This document shows positions 122 through 63,895 of a stretch of 64,000 bases of DNA, piece after piece (positions within the stretch are counted from its first letter, which is position 1; each line of letters opens with the position of its first letter). The position numbers and the translations under genes are program-made. The stretch lies in NCBI RefSeq assembly GCF_036588685.1, contig NC_086373.1, positions 54,808,001-54,872,000 on the forward strand, written 5' to 3'. Below the pieces are notes generated by a model, which did not search any database, had not been told where the DNA came from, and saw only the letters and a program-made list of their open reading frames with translations. Source of the stretch: Mytilus trossulus. Its lineage: Eukaryota.

Positions 122-1276
122 TTATAAGTCAACAATATCTCTCTCAGGAATCCACTGACAAAAACATTTATCCCAATCCAGGAATTTTACATAACCCTCA
201 CGTTGACCATTCCGCCTTCGCCATTTAAGCACTTTCTCAACAAACCACAATGCGTCAGCCTCCTTTTTCACACGCTGCAACTCTGTATAATTGAAATTGC
301 CTACAACTTCCTTGTCCAAAAAATCTTGTACTTTATAAAAGATTTTCCCATGTATTAGAAATCGTCTATATATTTTAAATATTTCGGAGGTCCACTGTTG
401 CTGATAAGCTCTTTGAAACGGTTTCTTCAAATGGCTCAGTCTTACCATGTCATTGATTTTAAAATGAAACTGTTTCCCTCTTTTACGTTGTACTTTTAAT
501 GTTTCTTTCTTTTCTCTGATTCGTTTTTCTTTGGGTGGAGTTTTAATATACATATATGCCCACAAATCATATTTGTTTTTCTCATTCACATCTTTTGGAG
601 CTGTATTATTTAAACTTCTATGTGGCGTTGCATTATAACTTGCTACCAAATTTTGTAGAACATTGAGATAGCTATAAGTTCTATGCTTTGTAAAATATCG
701 GAACATCATCCTCCGAAATGTCAAATTGACCCTCTCTGCTATTGACGCTTTACTACTGTCGGAATTTAAATAGACATGATGGTAAATGTCATATTTTTTA
801 AACACACGTTTCAAATCTTTGTTTTTGAATTCAGTTCCCGCATCTGTGGAAACCTTCAAAGGGATTTTACCATGTTTGAAGATTTTTTCAAATGCATCAG
901 CTACTGTCTTCCCAAACTTGTTTTTTAATGGATAAATCCATAAAAACCGTGTGAAAATATCGATAACAACCAACAGGAAACGTGTCTTATTGTTATATTT
1001 CTGTATGTTGGATACATCCATAAGGTCAGCATCGTATTGCTCATACGGTTCCGATACAATTATTTTCACTCTTTTAATTCTACGTTTTACAGGTTTTTGT
1101 AAATTGTAGTCGTCTATTTTTTCCATCCATTTCCTGATCTTGTATACGCTTGGTACATTTCCATCTCTTGATGTCTTCAACGTTTGATAAATTTTTTCAG
1201 CACTTAGGTATGCTCCCCCATTTGCTGTATTGTAATATACATTCCTAAGTTTTTCATCTAAATCATCATTTTCCAT
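122..1276 (-). CDS. Polinton integrase (rve DDE core + C-terminal chromodomain), 384 aa, intact
   Basis: YDADLMD / VIDIFTRFLW / STDAGTEF / SIAERVNLT catalytic motifs, YNATPHRSL, and chromodomain WFVEKVLKWRRRNGQREGYVKFLDWDKCFCQWIP. Confidence 0.92.
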   Translation of the reverse strand: MENDDLDEKLRNVYYNTANGGAYLSAEKIYQTLKTSRDGNVPSVYKIRKWMEKIDDYNLQKPVKRRIKRVKIIVSEPYEQYDADLMDVSNIQKYNNKTRFLLVVIDIFTRFLWIYPLKNKFGKTVADAFEKIFKHGKIPLKVSTDAGTEFKNKDLKRVFKKYDIYHHVYLNSDSSKASIAERVNLTFRRMMFRYFTKHRTYSYLNVLQNLVASYNATPHRSLNNTAPKDVNEKNKYDLWAYMYIKTPPKEKRIREKKETLKVQRKRGKQFHFKINDMVRLSHLKKPFQRAYQQQWTSEIFKIYRRFLIHGKIFYKVQDFLDKEVVGNFNYTELQRVKKEADALWFVEKVLKWRRRNGQREGYVKFLDWDKCFCQWIPERDIVDL

Positions 1277-1622
1277 TGTTAAAAATAGGTTCCAAATCTA
1301 TCATTTTTTCAACTTTATCTATTATGCGAGATGCTCTGTGCGGTGTTTTCAATATAGTATTTTTCCAATCTGTTGATTGTAAAAATGTAAGTTGATAGTA
1401 GACTCTCACATTATCTGGAATATTTGATTGTCTGACTAAATTAACAAAATCGGTGTACACTTTATCTGTTTCTACTTGATAAAAAAAATCCCATGCATTT
1501 CCTCCACTTATGTGTTCCACTTGATTTTCCTTCTTCAGAATGTCAAAAACTGACTTTGCATATATTATATCGAATATGTTATCAAGTCTGGCTATATTTT
1601 CACATGATTCTATCTCATCCAT
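1266..1622 (-). CDS. Polinton-encoded 118-aa protein of unknown function
   Basis: ATG-initiated, globular-looking composition, overlaps the integrase start by 11 nt, virus-like gene packing. Confidence 0.7.
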   Translation of the reverse strand: MDEIESCENIARLDNIFDIIYAKSVFDILKKENQVEHISGGNAWDFFYQVETDKVYTDFVNLVRQSNIPDNVRVYYQLTFLQSTDWKNTILKTPHRASRIIDKVEKMIDLEPIFNNGK

Positions 1623-10423: not shown

Positions 10424-10619
10424 CTGAAACGTAAAGAAATATTTTTTTTGAAATGCAGATAAAAAAAGACCCGAGATAGTTCGCTCGAAGCTTTCAAAAT
10501 ACTTTTCTCACTTTTCTGTCAATCAAATATATCACATACAAATTGTGTTTGAAAATGGTATACCGCAGGATATCATATTTTAAGATGTCACCATAATAAA
10601 AACCGGTTTTTTTCTAAAG

Positions 10620-11188
10620 TGAACATTGATTGGTTAAATATTTCTCAGTGTGTTTGAATTTGTTTGTTAGCTTTTTGGTCATGAATGTTTGTCTCTGATA
10701 TTTTATTAACTATGCATTTGTATTCAGATATCGCAGATCAAATTTGTTCGTTCATTGTGTAATCATTCGTTTTTTGATTGAGTTAAGTCTGCCAATTGAT
10801 ATTTTATCGTATGTTTTTCTATGTTGTGATGTTATGCTATTGTTTCAGAAAAAGGGAGAAGGTTTGGATCCATTAAAACGTTTAATCCCGCTGCAAATGT
10901 TTGCACCTGTCCTAAGTCAGGAATCTGATGTACAGTAGTTGTCGTTTGTTTATGTAATATATACGTGTTTCTCGTTTCTCGTTTTGTTTATATAGATTAG
11001 ACCGTTGGTTTTCCCGTTTGAATGGTTTTACACTAGTAATTTTGGGGCCCTTTATAGCTTGTTATTCGGTGTGAGCCAATGCTCCGTGTTGAAGGCCGTA
11101 CTTTAACCTATAATGGTTTACTTTTTAAATTGTTATTTGGATGGAGAGTTGTCTCATTGGCACTCACACCACATCTTCCTATATCTAT
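10620..11188 (+). mobile_element. Naiad/Penelope-associated 3' end repeat, family B
   Basis: Same module order as the RT-linked family C tail: twister, GGGGCC motif, then terminal GTTGTCTCATTGGCA. Left boundary is approximate. Confidence 0.7.
10845..10928 (+). ncRNA. Twister ribozyme, type-P5 permutation (family B)
   Basis: TCAGA-AAAA-GGGA-GAAGG-TT-TGGATCCA-TTA-AAACGTTT^AA-TCCC-GC-TGCAAATGTTTGCA-CCTG-TCCTAAGT-CAGG-AA-TCTGA. P5, P2, P3 and P4 all pair. Predicted cleavage at 10883/10884. Confidence 0.8.
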
Positions 11189-14475: not shown

Positions 14476-15043
14476 AATATAAAAAAGAAGATGTTGTATG
14501 ATTGCTAATGAGACAACTATCCACAAAAGACCATAATGACACAGACATTAACAACTATAGGTCACCGTACGGCCTTCAACAATGAGCAAAGCCCATACCG
14601 CATAGTCAGATATAAAAGGCCCCGAGAAAACAATGTAAAACAATTCAAACGAGAAAACTAACGGCCTTATTTATGTAAAATAATAAACGAGAAACAAATA
14701 TGTAACACATAAACAAACGACAACCACTGAATTTACAGGCTCCTGACTTGGGACAGGCACATACATAAATAATGTTGCGGGGTTAAACATGTTAGCGGGA
14801 TCCCCCCACCCACCCACCCCTTAACCATGGACAGTGGTATAACAGTACAACATAAGAACGAACTATAAAAATCAGTTAAAAAAGGCTTAACTCATCACAT
14901 GGACAAAAATACAAGTGGACGTGGCCGGGTACTTATACATCCCGATACAAAAAGACACAATGAACAGATATGAGATTACTCGCAGTTATCATCTGACAGC
15001 TAGTTCAAAGCCACTAACAACTAATAAAAAAATCATGCATCTA
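14476..15043 (-). mobile_element. Naiad/Penelope-associated 3' end repeat, family A, with a damaged twister at 14736-14828
   Basis: Contains CCTGTCCCAAGTCAGG, AACATGTT, GGGATCCC and the GGGGCC motif. The GAGGG segment is replaced by a GGGT expansion. Confidence 0.7.
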
Positions 15044-22435: not shown

Positions 22436-23121
22436 ATTCGATACGACAAGTGCTGCTGACCGCACAATTTTTGAGCAACAGGACGGTTGCCACATGAGGA
22501 GCAGGATCTACTTACCCTTGCGGAGCACTTGAGATCGCCCGCAGTATTTGGTCGAGTTCGTGTTTTACTCGGTCTTTAGTTTTCTATGTTGTTTCTTGTG
22601 TACTATTATTTGTCTGTTTCTCTTTTCTATTTTTAGCCATAGCGTTGTCAGTTTATTTTCGATTGGTGAGTTTGACTGTTCCTCTGGTATATTTCGCCCC
22701 TCTTTTATAGTAACTATCCGGCTCATGGTATCATTTCTTCTGAATGTTACATACCTTTAATAATATGCTGATTCAAAATCAAATATCAAAAACATATAAT
22801 TAAGCTTATGGAGGAATGGTTTGAAAAATGTTTGATATAAAATAAACAGGAAATATTGGTATAACTTTTACTAGGAAATAAAATTGAGAATGGAAATGGG
22901 GAATGTGTCGGAGAGACAACAACCCGACCAAATAAAAAAAAAAACAACAGCAGAAGGTCACCAACAGGTCTTCAATGTAGCGAGAAATTCCCGCACCCGG
23001 AGGCGTCCTTCAGCTGGCCCCTAAACAAACATATACTAGTTCAGTGATAATGAACGCCATACTAATTTCCAAATTGTACACAAGAAACTAATATAAAAAT
23101 AATACAAGACTAACAAAGGCC

Positions 23122-23204
23122 AGAGGCTCCTGACTTGGGACAGGCGCAAAAATGCGGCGGGGTTAAACATGTTTGTGAGATCTCAACCCTCCCCCTATAC
23201 CTCT
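23122..23204 (-). ncRNA. Twister ribozyme, type-P5 permutation (family C), ~320 nt downstream of the RT stop
   Basis: AGAGGT-ATA-GGGG-GAGGG-TT-GAGATCTC-AC-AAACATGTTT^AA-CCCC-GC-CGCATTTTTGCG-CCTG-TCCCAAGT-CAGG-A-GCCTCT. Predicted cleavage at 23165/23164. Confidence 0.82.
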
Positions 23205-23520
23205 AACCAATGTAGAAAAGTAAACGCATGACAATACGCACATTAAAATTCAGTTCAAGAGAAGTCCGAGTCTGATGTCAGAAGATGTAACCAAAGAAAA
23301 TAAACAAAATGATAATAATACATAAATAACAACAGACTACTAGCAGTTAACTGACATGCCAGCTCCAGACTTCAATTACACTGACTGACTGATTATGATT
23401 TCATCATATGAACATCAGGCACAATCCTTCCCGTTAGGGGTTTAGTATCATACCATCATAACATATATGAGAAGAACATAACCCGTGTCATGCCAACAAC
23501 TGTTTTTAGAATAAATGTGT

Positions 23521-24152
23521 TTAGTTTCGACGCAAAGACCTTATCAGTGACTCAATATTAACGCCAAAATATGCAATCTTTAATGACTTGACAACATTAT
23601 CGTAAGTATATCCCTTCTTAATACGTCTATTCAAAGGTTTTGTAAGTTTCTGAGGTGAATACTGACACCTTTGTGCTTTATAAAGAATATTTCCATAAAA
23701 AAATGGATGTGAAATACCTGAACGTATAAGAAGTCTGCATGTTGAGCTATATTTACGAATGATGTCTTTATACCGATAATAAAATTTAGTAAATGTTTTG
23801 ACTAGTTTGTGATATCGAAAACCCTGGTGTAATAATTTTTCAGTAATACATAAATTTCTCTCGTTAAAATCTAAAACATTGTTACATGCACGAGCAAATC
23901 GTACAAGTTGAGATATATAAACACCGTAAGATGGTGACAAGGGAACGTCACCATCTAAAAACGGATAATTAACGATAGGAAATGAAAAATCATCCCTTTT
24001 ATCATAAATTTTAGTATTCAGCTTTCCGTTAGTGATATAGATATCAAGATCGAGGAAAGGGCAGTGGTCATTGTTAGTATTAGCTTTATTTAAAGTAAGT
24101 TCAGCAGGATAAATTTCATTAATATACATACTGAAGTCGTCATTATTGAGAG
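23521..24152 (-). pseudogene. Penelope-like reverse transcriptase C-terminal fragment (~210 aa, open)
   Basis: RT-like sequence begins at LNNDDFSMY, just after where the YIDD motif should be. The upstream part of the ORF-track entry is flanking DNA. Confidence 0.85.
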
Positions 24153-28909: not shown

Positions 28910-31900
28910 TCTATTTATATGTCTAGACTCCATTATTAGTAAGATTAACATATGATATTGAACAGATCATTGTGTATTGTTATATAAAGATGTTTGATCA
29001 TCTTCAGCTGAGGCTTTTATTGTTTATTATATGTTATTTTTATGCTGATTCATTCATGAATATCCCATTCCTCCCTTTAAATATGTAAATGTAGATATAT
29101 TTTTTTTTGCGAATATATGGAAATTTTGAGGTTCTAGTGGCAAAGTTTGTCACATTAATTATTTAACAAATTTTAATAATTGTAGAGAAAAGGAAGCCAG
29201 TAAAAACTAATGAAATATTTTATTTGTAAAGTATACAATTCGGAGTTTTAATATATTTTATTTATGCTTCACCGTATCATTCATTTCCTTGCAATATTCA
29301 GTAACTATATGTATTGCGAAACTTATGTCTTACAGAGAACGCATCTAATGAATGAATTTGTGTACGATTGCAAATATAACTCATTTGACCCACATCAACA
29401 TAAATAGTCCAAGCATAAGACAAAAATAGAGAGCAATTATAAAAGTAATCAAAATATCTCAAGAACGTCCATCAAGTTTCTAATTATGGGATAGGCAATT
29501 TCAGACGTTTTATGTCAAATGTTTTCATTTGAAGTATTTTCATAAACTAAAACGAGGAAATACTAAGTATGTTTACTAAATTTTGCAAGTTGCAATAACT
29601 GATTTTAGGCTATTGGTACTGATTTTAATAATCCTATTATGGATAAGTATTTTACTTTTTACGTACATGTAGCAGGAACTCAAAGCGATAAAACACGTCA
29701 TTTCCGAATTATATGTAAGCTTTGGGAGAGTTTGTCCTTGAATTAATTTTATTTTCTTCCTTGTTTTACTGTTCTAACATTGTATATGATTATATTTGTT
29801 TATCATAAAGATTTGGAACAGTGTATGTATATATATCTAATTAATCTAAAGAATTGGAGCAAGGTTTTAAAAATGTATGATATGTTTAAGACCACTGACC
29901 TTCAGAAAGATGCTGAGAGCAATGTTTTCTTAACTTTGTAGTTGAAATTTTTCTATAAACATTTCCGAAGATATGATGGCTATCTCTGTTTATACAAGAT
30001 AACTTTCTAGTCTAAGATAATTAACGCTTATACTATATTGGTTCTCATGAGTACAAAACGGTCAGTCATTCACAACTTTCAAAGCAATAACAGCTACTTT
30101 ATTCGATTTTCTGTAAATATCAGGAATCATTTAAGAATTTATAATTATTGTGAATGAAAATGTGAAATATTATCAGAACGTACGTGGAATATGAAAATTT
30201 GAATAATTATACCACGTTTCCTGTTTTATGAATGGAAGATACTACATGACCATATTTGGAATAACCACTCAGAAACAAGGAAGGGTAGCGATAAGATTTA
30301 CATTTGTGAAATTCTTGGAGTCCTATAAATTTATACATTCCTTAGTTAACTTTGCATAATCCTTTTACCATTGGAACTAACAAGAAATAGGAGTTTTTAT
30401 AATTTATTTGGAAAAAAAGCAAACAAAATGATGAAAAGTGTAAACAGTTTTGACCAAATAGTGACAATTCTTGCAGCAACAGCACTAATATGTTTGAAAA
30501 CAGCAAAAGGTGAGTGGAATTAGTTTTATATTTAACTATTTTGTTGAATTTTTGTGGATGTTTTGAAATACTCAACGACGGATTATATAAACAAAAAAAT
30601 TAAATTGTTTTAATCAGAGGTTAAGAATTCTAAATTGTTAAAAGATATACATGTATTCGTTTTCCAAGGACGGTATATATCGACCACAAATGATATGAAA
30701 ATATAGCATCTAATAATAGCCATTCTCAATTTTATATGTTTGCTTATTAATTGTAGCTTATTATCTATTGTAGATAACAATATCCCAGTATATTAGTATT
30801 GCCCTTTATTTAAAAAATTATTTCCAAAGAGCACGTGTATCTTGCACTGTGTACTCAATTGAGGATGTCAACACCAAAAAAAAAATGCAGTTCTGTAATA
30901 ATTTACATATTTTTTCATTATGAAAGTTCAAGCAAAACTCACAAAAATCCACCAATTCCTTTTATATTCAAAAGATATGCAATTGAGTTTTAAACCTCAT
31001 GTCACGGATGAATGAATAATGTAAAAAACTATATCAAAGGAGCGGGATAAGCAATCCGATTATAGAGAAATGGCTAAGCATTGGCAACATATGTGAGTCT
31101 AAAGCTTGTAATTATCTTTTTGTGGTGAATAATGAAAAAATACTCTATCTTGTTTTCCTCATTTTATATTTCTTTTTGAATATTTAAATCCTTTACCCCT
31201 AGTACATGGATTGTATAGTTGTATACAATATTGGTTAAGGGCCAGCTGAAGCCCGCCTCCGAGTGCGGGATTTTCTCACTGCGTTGAAGACTCTTTTATT
31301 GCATTTGGCTGTTGTCTGCTCTTTGGTCAGTTGTAATGTCTTTGGCCCATTCCTTGTTTCTATTTTCTAATCTATACATTATTGAAATTACATTATTGAA
31401 ATGTAAACTGTTGCTACGGTCACTTCGTGGACAGAATGGTTTTTTTCAAGCATCATGCACAATCAGTAATTTCAAGACAACAGTTTCCATTCAACTTTAT
31501 ATTAATGTATTCTTTTTACATTTAATCCACTGTTAAATAAGTTGAATCAAGCAAATGGATAGATGTGTTGAGAAACCATGACTCTGGAAGCTTATATATA
31601 AAGTCTATTGACCCTTTAATGTTATTATAAAATATTAAACACATAAAGTAGAAAGTTGTATAAAATGAGACGAACTTTTTCCACAGATACCAAAATATTA
31701 TTCAGATAATTCATTGGTTGATCAATTGTTGCTTCACGCCGTCTTAGTGCGACATGATTGATTGATTGTTGGTTGCTTAACGTCCAGGGGCAAATATTTG
31801 ATGCATGTCAAGGACGACCTTAGCGTGACATGCTATGTTGCACACACTTATTGAAAGTACAATTAGTGTATTATATTTTATTTTATATTTCCTGTTGTAT

Positions 31901-52930: not shown

Positions 52931-53341
52931 AATAAAATTGAGAATGGAAATGGGGAATATGTCAAAGAGACAACAACCCGACCAAATAAAAAAAAAACAG
53001 CAGAAGGTCACCAACAGGTCTTCAATGTAGCGAGAAATTCCTGCACCCGGAGGCGTCCTTCAGCTGGCCCCTAAACAAATATATACTAGTTCAGTGATAA
53101 TGAACGCCATACTAATTTCCAAATTGTACACAATAAACTAAAATTAAAATAATACAAGACTAACAAAGGCCAGAGGCTCCTGACTTGGGACAGGCGCAAA
53201 AATGCGGCGGGGTTAAACATTTTTGTGAGATCTCAACCCTCCCCCTATACCTCTAACCAATGTAGAAAAGTAAACGCATAACAATATGCACATTAAAATT
53301 CAGTTCAAGAGAAGTCCGAGTCTGATGTCAAAAGATGTAAC
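52931..53341 (-). mobile_element. Family C Naiad 3' end, near-identical to 22877-23291
   Basis: Direct sequence match with only a few differences. Confidence 0.88.
53172..53254 (-). ncRNA. Twister ribozyme, type-P5 (family C, second copy)
   Basis: Same as 23122-23204 except for one substitution in the second palindrome. Confidence 0.78.
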
Positions 53342-54435: not shown

Positions 54436-54479
54436 GCGCTAGACGCGCGTTTCGTCTACAAAAGACTCATCAGTGACGC
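54436..54479 (-). ncRNA. Minimal type I hammerhead ribozyme with intact core, in a retrozyme-like insert (~54399-54591)
   Basis: GCGTCA-CTGATGA-GTCT-TTTGT-AGAC-GAAA-CGCGCG-TC^TAGCGC, with palindromic stem III. The insert splits the hairpin at 54304-54620. Confidence 0.85.
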
Positions 54480-62913: not shown

Positions 62914-63698
62914 TGTCAACAGATGGTTATTATAATTCAGTCATTTCCTATCGGTCATTTGCCAAATGGAATTTTATATTTTTATGCATTAGAAAAAAAA
63001 CCTGTTCTGTACATATAATTATATAAAAGTTGGGGAAATTGTCGTTCGAAGAAATTAAACCCAGCGTAAAAAAGTTGTATGACGCATGTAATTTCCATAT
63101 TCATCTCATCTTATAAATTTAAGGAAAAAAAACTTAATCATGACGAAAGACTGAAACATGTTAAACAATCTTTCTCTATTTTATACTTTCAAGAAATCAT
63201 TCGACTGATCTATTTATCTAATATAGCTATTTTTGTCATAATCTGTATACATGTATAAAATGCAACATACACCATGTCATTAAAAGATCAATTTACTGGA
63301 TTGATTCAATTGATAAAGGCATCATTCAATTTAATTAAAGGGGTTCAATCCTTGATAGCGGGTTAATATTTAAATGTGTTCATTTTAGGTATAGTTATCT
63401 AGTGCAATAATGATAAAAAGACGAGGTTAAAAATAAAAATCAAGCATTTGATATGTAGAGAGTTGATTATCAAAGCGTTATTTTACAACTGTACCATGGC
63501 AATCATTTTTATATGGTTAATAGCTGTTTGCTGAGAATTATTTCACAAACAACAGTAGTACACTAACGAGATGAGCTGAAAGAAACTTGACATTTCATAT
63601 CCCAGTTCCTATCTCAACTTTCTTTTTAATCCAGATCAGTCTTGAAAATTACAGGCAACACTACGGAAGCCGATAAGGGCCGTTCAAAAAAAATATTT

Positions 63699-63895
63699 TA
63701 TGTCGTTGTTACGACATAGCATGTGGTAATTTCGACATAACATGTCGTTATTACGACATCATTATGTCGTAATTTCGACATAACATGTCGTTATAACGAC
63801 ATCGCTATGTCGTAATTTCGACATATCATGTCGTAATAACGACATCACTATGTCGTTTTAACGACATAGCTATGTCGTAATAACGACATCGCTAT
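63699..63895. repeat. Tandem array of 9 palindromic 21-22-bp units (ATGTCGT...ACGACAT)
   Basis: Units read directly. Probably the internal repeat of a MITE. Confidence 0.85.

What the first reader, a model, noticed from the sequence alone, without database searches (positions are those of the whole stretch)
11044..11113. Second, unassigned covarying RNA structure downstream of the twister in three families
B (11044-11113 +): GGGGCC-CT-TTATAG...TCGGT-GTGAGC.CAAT.GCTCC-GTGTTGAAG-GCCGT...TAAC-CTATAA. A (14623-14555 -): GGGGCC-TT-TTATA...GCGGT-ATGGGC.TTT.GCTCAT-TGTTGAAG-GCCGT...TGAC-CTATAG. C (23021-22951 -): GGGGCC-AG-CTGAAG...CGGGT-GCGGGA.ATT.TCTCGC-TACATTGAAG-ACCTG...TGAC-CTTC. Three stems change sequence but keep pairing, while GGGGCC, TTGAAG and T(G/A)AC stay fixed. 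I could not fit it to HDV, hammerhead, hairpin or pistol topologies. It is a candidate RT-recognition element (PLE RTs are telomerase relatives) or a new catalytic RNA.
Basis: partly seen in the sequence, partly recalled or inferred. Interest (0 to 1): 0.7.

Follow-up and report, generated by a model that had tools for sequence, protein, structure and literature searches.

The report
Bulged RNA hairpin in mussel retrotransposons
A 70-letter stretch near the tail of one group of mussel jumping genes, with over 33,000 copies in this genome, changes in matched pairs as a folded RNA hairpin would; it is likely a docking site for the element's own copying protein rather than a new RNA enzyme, though neither role has been tested.

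Summary
The sequences are as described. A, B and C are not SINEs but 3' ends of autonomous Naiad Penelope-like elements (B and C with UGA-read ORFs). The motif lies between a P5-type twister and the fixed 3' insertion end; 33,275 copies match against 6 controls. Across seven lineages the structure holds: a long imperfect stem, a small hairpin, an unpaired UUGAAG bulge and an unpaired 5' GGGGCC. 14 of 23 pairs change on both sides against 4.5 in a tree-aware null (0 of 5000). T(G/A)AC is not fixed. There is no Rfam, ribozyme-core or pseudoknot match. The motif marks one clade (96/96) and is absent from other twister-bearing Naiads, so it cannot be the general reverse-transcriptase signal. A more conserved hairpin 20-22 nt beyond the insertion end, outside the window's copies, fits that role better. 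Best reading: a clade-specific accessory binding site for the element's protein (0.4). New ribozyme about 0.08: no cleavage trace was seen, and active family B folds it poorly. The scan had noted the twister and SECIS before, not this motif.

The parts
11044..11113 (+). Motif, family B copy: GGGGCC 11044-11049; P1 11052-11057 with 11108-11113; irregular middle 11058-11064 with 11101-11107; P2 11065-11070 with 11095-11100; P3 11071-11076 with 11081-11086; bulge TGTTGAAG 11087-11094
   Evidence: sequence; CM 70.6 bits; pair tables
10852..10921 (+). P5-type twister-like ribozyme of copy B; predicted cut between 10883 and 10884 (cut position from recalled twister consensus)
   Evidence: alignment; Rfam Twister-P5 E=0.0093 on the related C2 copy; weak twister-P1 hit here
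10598..11188 (+). 5'-truncated copy of Naiad family B (3' UTR only); fixed 3' end at about 11187
   Evidence: 97% to the tandem unit in L350, which has a 1003-aa frame with 5 UGA and a DKA motif; same 3' end in most of 30 loci
14555..14623 (-). Motif, family A copy
   Evidence: CM 73 bits
14473..15044 (-). 5'-truncated copy of Naiad family A, twister at about 14811-14742
   Evidence: 90% to L327, which carries a Naiad RT upstream
22948..23021 (-). Motif, family C copy
   Evidence: CM 92.2 bits; z=-3.07
23129..23195 (-). P5-type twister-like ribozyme of copy C
23405..23469 (-). SECIS-like hairpin behind the ORF stop of copy C
   Evidence: Rfam SECIS_1 32.3 bits, gathering 35, E=0.017; 4 in-frame UGA in full units
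22876..24152 (-). 5'-truncated copy of Naiad family C with the RT C-terminus (frame ends 23521), SECIS, twister, motif and fixed 3' end at about 22879
   Evidence: 97.6% to the 4.0-kb tandem unit in L062
4778..4861 (-). Further family B motif copy
52991..53075 (-). Further family C motif copy
31234..31318 (+). Older C-type motif copy
   Evidence: CM 57.5 bits
36485..36568 (+). Older B-type motif copy
   Evidence: CM 50.4 bits

Best explanation
The motif is a covarying bulged hairpin in the tail (pseudo-LTR) of one clade of mussel Naiad retrotransposons, lying between the twister and the fixed point where copies end, and it likely serves as an accessory docking site for the element's own endonuclease-reverse transcriptase protein. 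Shown: position, copy number, covariation, sense-strand asymmetry, clade restriction. Inferred: in RNA read through tandem units, the protein would start reverse transcription internally at the fixed end, held mainly by the universal hairpin 20-22 nt downstream. This motif, 60-140 nt on the other side, would present the invariant UUGAAG bulge and GGGGCC strand to the protein and help select or fold the template. It is then copied into nearly half of all truncated insertions.
For: Invariant bases cluster in the unpaired bulge, the 5' GGGGCC and the adjoining short P2, while stems vary with compensation, as expected of a recognition site. It lies within about 140 nt of a fixed insertion end in A, B and C. 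In PAc, reverse transcription starts internally and the shortest active RNA reached about 90 nt 5' and 55-60 nt 3' of the start (PMC11167929, my arithmetic from its coordinates), a span that here covers the 3' part of the motif and the downstream hairpin. 20 of 95 copies run through the twister cut site, so templates carry twister, motif and start site together. The shared fold is not thermodynamically favoured in A, B, D and E yet covaries, which suits protein-stabilised folding.
Against: No binding data. The motif is absent from 28 other Naiad loci searched (best E=0.12) and, by motif search and by eye, from the published Naiad tails that I saw, so it is dispensable for Naiads at large. Spacing to the end varies. 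It is less conserved than the twister (23 of 73 vs 36 of 67 invariant) and only moderately above the spacer (20 of 107) and tail (16 of 75). Among 80 genomic copies core positions are no less mutated than flanks (0.122 vs 0.091 and 0.098), although post-insertion decay is expected to be neutral. PAc is a Poseidon element, not a Naiad.
Confidence: 0.4

Rival explanations
1. A translation or stability element. After twister cleavage the RNA has an uncapped 5' end; the motif sits 143-160 nt behind it and about 500-570 nt before the next unit's start codon, and would recruit ribosomes or block decay.
For: Position in tandem units. Ribozyme-assisted translation initiation is reported for RNA viruses (PMC13725137, listing only).
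Against: Other twister-bearing Naiads, including Sec-encoding ones, lack it. No RNA ends at the twister in 4 RNA runs. No pseudoknot partner as in exonuclease-resistant RNAs.
Confidence: 0.2
2. A weakly selected structure, kept for RNA compaction or local folding and inherited from the clade's ancestor, with no specific ligand.
For: Clade restriction, moderate conservation, broken pairs and an alternative 7-bp hairpin over the bulge in the young, abundant B variant.
Against: An unpaired UUGAAG is invariant in 10 of 10 representatives across RTs down to 62-68% identity; compensatory changes exceed the null. The representatives were partly picked with a pattern containing UUGAAG.
Confidence: 0.17
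3. A conformational switch that tunes twister cleavage or template use: GGGGCC pairs either with the GRCCU strand (displacing P1) or with the twister.
For: In the alternative register GGGGCC forms 6 of 6 pairs in E, G and C3, 5 in C and 4 in A-type/B-type rows; E folds that way.
Against: No two-sided covariation supports it beyond E; no partner is shared by all lineages.
Confidence: 0.1
4. A new class of small self-cleaving or ligating ribozyme working with the twister.
For: Invariant G/A-rich bulge beside a ribozyme, in an element group reported to lack hammerheads (PMC8557442); no known family fits.
Against: No pseudoknot or tertiary partner. No pile-up of 5' truncations in it (5.6 per 1000 nt at risk vs 3.8-8.9 in the spacer and twister halves). 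No RNA ends. A cut here would separate the start site from the element body. Family B folds it poorly. The twister also left no trace, so these tests are weak.
Confidence: 0.08
5. A DNA-level internal promoter or endonuclease target within the pseudo-LTR.
For: PLE promoters lie in the pLTR (PMC8557442 passages).
Against: Pairing rather than sequence is conserved, and only on the sense strand with G-U pairs.
Confidence: 0.05

Closest known systems
Naiad clade of Penelope-like elements, selenoprotein Naiads Naiad_Scon and Naiad_Mmer (Craig et al. 2021, PMC8557442)
   Same: N-terminal GIY-YIG, RT with DKA motif, in-frame UGA at Cys positions, SECIS after the stop, tandem units, 5' truncation
   Different: The paper reports no twister (0 mentions) and no such hairpin; the published tails that I saw (Scon, Mmer, Mgal, Bpla) show a twister-like sequence but not this motif
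PAc (Poseidon, Anolis) RNA region for internal initiation (Frangieh et al. 2024, PMC11167929)
   Same: Structured RNA near a ribozyme around an internal reverse-transcription start that defines the genomic 3' end
   Different: Different clade and ribozyme; PAc starts inside an AC-rich stem-loop in the ORF, whereas this motif lies 60-140 nt 5' of the start in non-coding RNA; binding is untested here
Twister ribozyme type P5 (Rfam RF02684)
   Same: Describes the neighbouring upstream element (E=0.0093, below gathering)
   Different: No match to the motif itself
Telomerase RNA protein-binding domains and the hepadnavirus epsilon bulged stem-loop (recalled, not from a call)
   Same: Bulged or branched stem thought to bind an RT
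   Different: No sequence or Rfam similarity; the motif is clade-restricted and not at a fixed distance from the start

Membership tests
Naiad PLE (host element) | GIY-YIG endonuclease N-terminal to RT in one ORF | tested here: met
   1008-aa frame with IIYLLT..QYVGET before the RT; relatives carry PF01541 and PF00078
Naiad PLE (host element) | DKG modified to DKA; CxC motif | tested here: met
   features from PMC8557442
Naiad PLE (host element) | Tandem or partial tandem units, 3.4-4.4 kb, 5' truncation | tested here: met
   units of about 4.0 kb (C) and 4.4 kb (B); truncation spread
Hammerhead ribozyme | CUGANGA and GAAA cores | tested here: not met
   0 of 7 lineages (core words recalled); no Rfam hit
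HDV-like and pistol ribozymes | Conserved pseudoknot(s) | tested here: not met
   no shared partner for GGGGCC or UUGAAG within 200 nt in 7 lineages; no Rfam hit
Hairpin, hatchet, twister-sister and TS-like ribozymes | Conserved catalytic internal-loop sequences | tested here: not met
   core words absent in 7 of 7 (recalled words); the middle loop is not conserved; TS-like loops are 5x6 nt and conserved (PMC11620745 passages)
Any self-cleaving ribozyme | Site-specific self-cleavage | not testable with these tools
   indirect tests negative but weak
SECIS / K-turn | Conserved tandem G-A/A-G quartet | tested here: not met
   SECIS pattern absent in 7 of 7; the strand opposite the bulge has no unpaired bases
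Bivalve HCD SINE domain | Non-autonomous tRNA-headed element with a conserved central domain | tested here: not met
   A, B, C and F continue upstream into RT frames; domain sequences of PMC11481361 (listing only) were not compared
PLE RT-recognition element | Present across the element group at a fixed distance from the initiation site | tested here: not met
   one clade only; spacing 130-144 nt; the downstream hairpin meets both
PLE RT-recognition element | Binds the element's protein; needed for target-primed reverse transcription | not testable with these tools
   needs biochemistry

The most novel reading that the evidence does not exclude
Sec-encoding mussel Naiads carry a two-part RNA scaffold for their telomerase-like RT: this bulged hairpin on one side of the internal start and a phylum-crossing hairpin 20-22 nt on the other, like telomerase RNA domains flanking a template. 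Alternatively the UUGAAG bulge is the core of an undescribed catalytic RNA paired with a twister.
Probability: 0.2. Interest if true: 0.8.

Novelty: new variant of a known kind. Interest (0 to 1): 0.42.

Why it matters
[quoted passage not shown] This locus gives a compact, testable map: twister, covarying hairpin, exact start site and a conserved downstream hairpin within about 340 nt. The motif itself is clade-specific, so its general weight is moderate. The downstream hairpin found while testing it is the stronger lead.

Tried and rejected
Rfam: whole window at E<=1 and two short stretches at E<=10 gave nothing on the motif beyond one chance snoR80 match, E=5.5. HDV, pistol, hairpin, hatchet, SECIS and K-turn fits were rejected. 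An upstream helix for GGGGCC appears in A and F only (3, 12 and 18 of 300 shuffles as good; 8 other rows no better than shuffles; alignment fold empty). A tRNA A/B-box resemblance in A and B was noticed by eye and dropped, since C, D and E lack it and the copies are Naiad tails; ARAGORN was not run. Pattern scans of viral and prokaryote contigs: 0 matches each; the Naiad protein had no relative in viral contigs. One search used wrong spacings and caught only odd copies. One search found no closer family for L147 at the chosen cut-off. Sequencing runs: no RNA holder listed. Four raw RNA runs of a related species label showed reads on both strands, 3'-weighted, with no end peak at twister or motif, and no GT-AG joint among those shown (15 of 24 joints shown; 1 joint); this looks like read-through of genomic copies and is uninformative on cleavage. 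Within-genome conservation test: not supportive. An excess of deletions and of A>G in the motif may be alignment bias or subfamily variants and was not used. Literature: 6 searches found no description of the motif. Unseen supplements that may bear on this: PMC7229834 (unreadable here) and the bioRxiv preprints; Repbase and Dfam were not available.

Full report
Observation. The three strings are present as written, with two more full copies in the window and 11 of 15 covariance-model matches at E<0.01. The genome G000 (1.3 Gb; inferred to be a mussel from its size, 14 large contigs and twister-bearing repeats like published Naiad_Mgal tails) has 33,275 matches to GRGGCC-N36..44-TTGAAGRCC against 6 for the reversed control.

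Host elements. Copy C is the 3' end of a 4.0-kb element found in head-to-tail tandems; full units have a 1008-aa frame with N-terminal GIY-YIG, RT, DKA motif and 4 UGA at Cys-like positions, followed by a SECIS-like hairpin. This is a selenoprotein-type Naiad as defined in PMC8557442 (passages, supplement table S1 and parts of File S5 seen). B and A are also tails of autonomous Naiads. The order is ORF, SECIS (Rfam match seen for C), twister, 100-115 nt spacer, motif, 60-85 nt tail, fixed 3' end. The twister matches Rfam Twister-P5 at E=0.0093, below gathering.

More lineages. Of 80 metagenome loci with a Naiad RT, 6 carry the motif, adding C2, D and E. G000 added F (2 near-identical copies) and a single D-like copy G. 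On an RT tree of 32 rows the 9 motif-bearing rows form one side of a branch with 96/96 support; 4 rows whose contigs end before the UTR lie inside. A covariance model found nothing convincing in 28 other Naiad loci, 93 kb, filters off (best E=0.12); 19 of them show a twister, and 15 of the 19 have at least 180 nt behind it, with 3 more seen. Published tails of Scon, Mmer, Mgal and Bpla show a twister-like sequence but no motif by eye.

Structure. The fold is GGGGCC, then one long imperfect stem (P1, irregular middle, P2 with invariant GGU/RCC), a 5-6 bp hairpin P3, and a 3' bulge of 8-12 nt ending in UUGAAG. RNAalifold on 10 rows gives -11.8 kcal/mol with 7 of 21 pairs changed on both sides; the opposite strand gives -3.7 and 0 of 5. 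On the model-fitted alignment (11 rows, one a truncated extra copy) 84% of cells pair and 12 of 23 pairs change on both sides, 0 of 500 shuffles; slid registers pair 38-50%. With 7 lineages on the RT tree and one base moved by hand in the A/B/F rows, 14 of 23 pairs covary against 4.5+/-1.7 (0 of 5000 simulations). An unfitted alignment gives -15.7 against -2.9+/-1.8 in column shuffles, while spacer and upstream regions give no structure and the tail 4 invariant-type pairs. Caveats: the structure was chosen from these sequences; there are only two deep sub-clades; D and E are single contigs.

Against a simple story. T(G/A)AC varies. Single-sequence folding is strong for C, C2 and E but not for A, B and D; in context the shared fold is favoured in C, C2 and F only, 3 of 7. 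The young B variant can form a 7-bp hairpin over the bulge. Invariant positions: twister 36 of 67, motif 23 of 73, tail 16 of 75, spacer 20 of 107, upstream 17 of 156. GGGGCC has no partner shared by all lineages, although it can pair with the GRCCU strand in a register that excludes P1. Among 80 genomic copies the core is not less mutated than the flanks.

Catalysis. No Rfam family, core word or pseudoknot fits. Of 140 3'-intact copies in 1.15 Mb of unselected DNA, 95 passed the identity and edge filters; 45 include the whole motif, 20 cross the twister cut site, and 5' ends do not pile up at either. Four RNA runs show both strands and no end peaks there. These negatives are weak because the twister also shows nothing, as reported for the PAc hammerhead (PMC11167929, parts 1-2 of 4 read).

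RT recognition. In PAc, reverse transcription starts internally and genomic 3' ends mark the start; active templates needed about 90 nt before and 55-60 nt after it. In tandem Naiad units a second hairpin begins 22 nt past the insertion end in 4 of 4 units measured and about 20 nt by eye in motif-less Naiads. It covaries (6 of 16 pairs). A related form (homology judged by eye) lies near the start of 10 published consensi from oysters, ark clam, pearl oyster, mussels and a hemichordate (10 of 11 supplement hits), and 2 of 6 such matches in unselected G000 DNA have a hammerhead core 235-236 nt downstream. That hairpin is not copied into truncated insertions and is absent from the window's three copies. 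It is the better candidate for the general signal. The finding's motif is best read as a clade-specific accessory on the other side of the start: likely a binding site for the element's protein (0.4), with translation/stability (0.2), weak selection (0.17), switch (0.1), new ribozyme (0.08) and DNA element (0.05) as rivals.

Novelty. Six literature searches and term searches in PMC8557442, PMC7229834, PMC11620745 and two 2026 preprints (passages only) found no description. Earlier scan notes cover the twister and the SECIS, not this motif. Verdict: a real, undescribed, clade-restricted RNA structure of a known general kind, function untested; interest 0.42.

Noticed in passing
L062:4058-4092; L144:80-112; L148, L150, L152, L153, L158, L162, L164: Conserved covarying hairpin 20-22 nt beyond the insertion end in tandem Naiad units; a related form lies near the start of published mollusc and hemichordate Naiads. 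Strong candidate for the general RT-positioning signal.
   Followed up: partly
L399, L431 (G000): The related hairpin occurs 235-236 nt upstream of a hammerhead core, suggesting that mussel hammerhead retrozymes borrow Naiad proteins (2 of 6 matches).
   Followed up: partly
L148-L220 and published Naiad_Scon, Mmer, Mgal, Bpla tails: P5-type twister-like ribozymes are widespread in bivalve Naiads, a group reported to lack hammerheads.
   Followed up: partly
window 23405-23469 (-); L062, L350: Families C and B have 4 and 5 in-frame UGA at Cys-like positions; C has a SECIS-like hairpin. B's SECIS was not scored.
   Followed up: partly
L062:4039-4046 and about 4098: The insertion end lies just before a splice-acceptor-like pyrimidine tract and AG in C, B and other Naiads; no spliced reads were seen.
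   Followed up: partly
window 122-1297 (-): 391-aa frame with an rve integrase and a weak chromodomain match, Maverick/Polinton-like by recall.
   Followed up: no
window 54436-54479 (-): Type I hammerhead match, 29.5 bits.
   Followed up: no
window 63698-63895: Self-complementary tandem repeat that gives spurious miRNA matches.
   Followed up: no
random G000 loci: Deletions and A>G changes seem about 4-fold and 2-fold more frequent in the motif than in flanks; may be alignment bias, subfamily variants, RT skipping or RNA editing.
   Followed up: no
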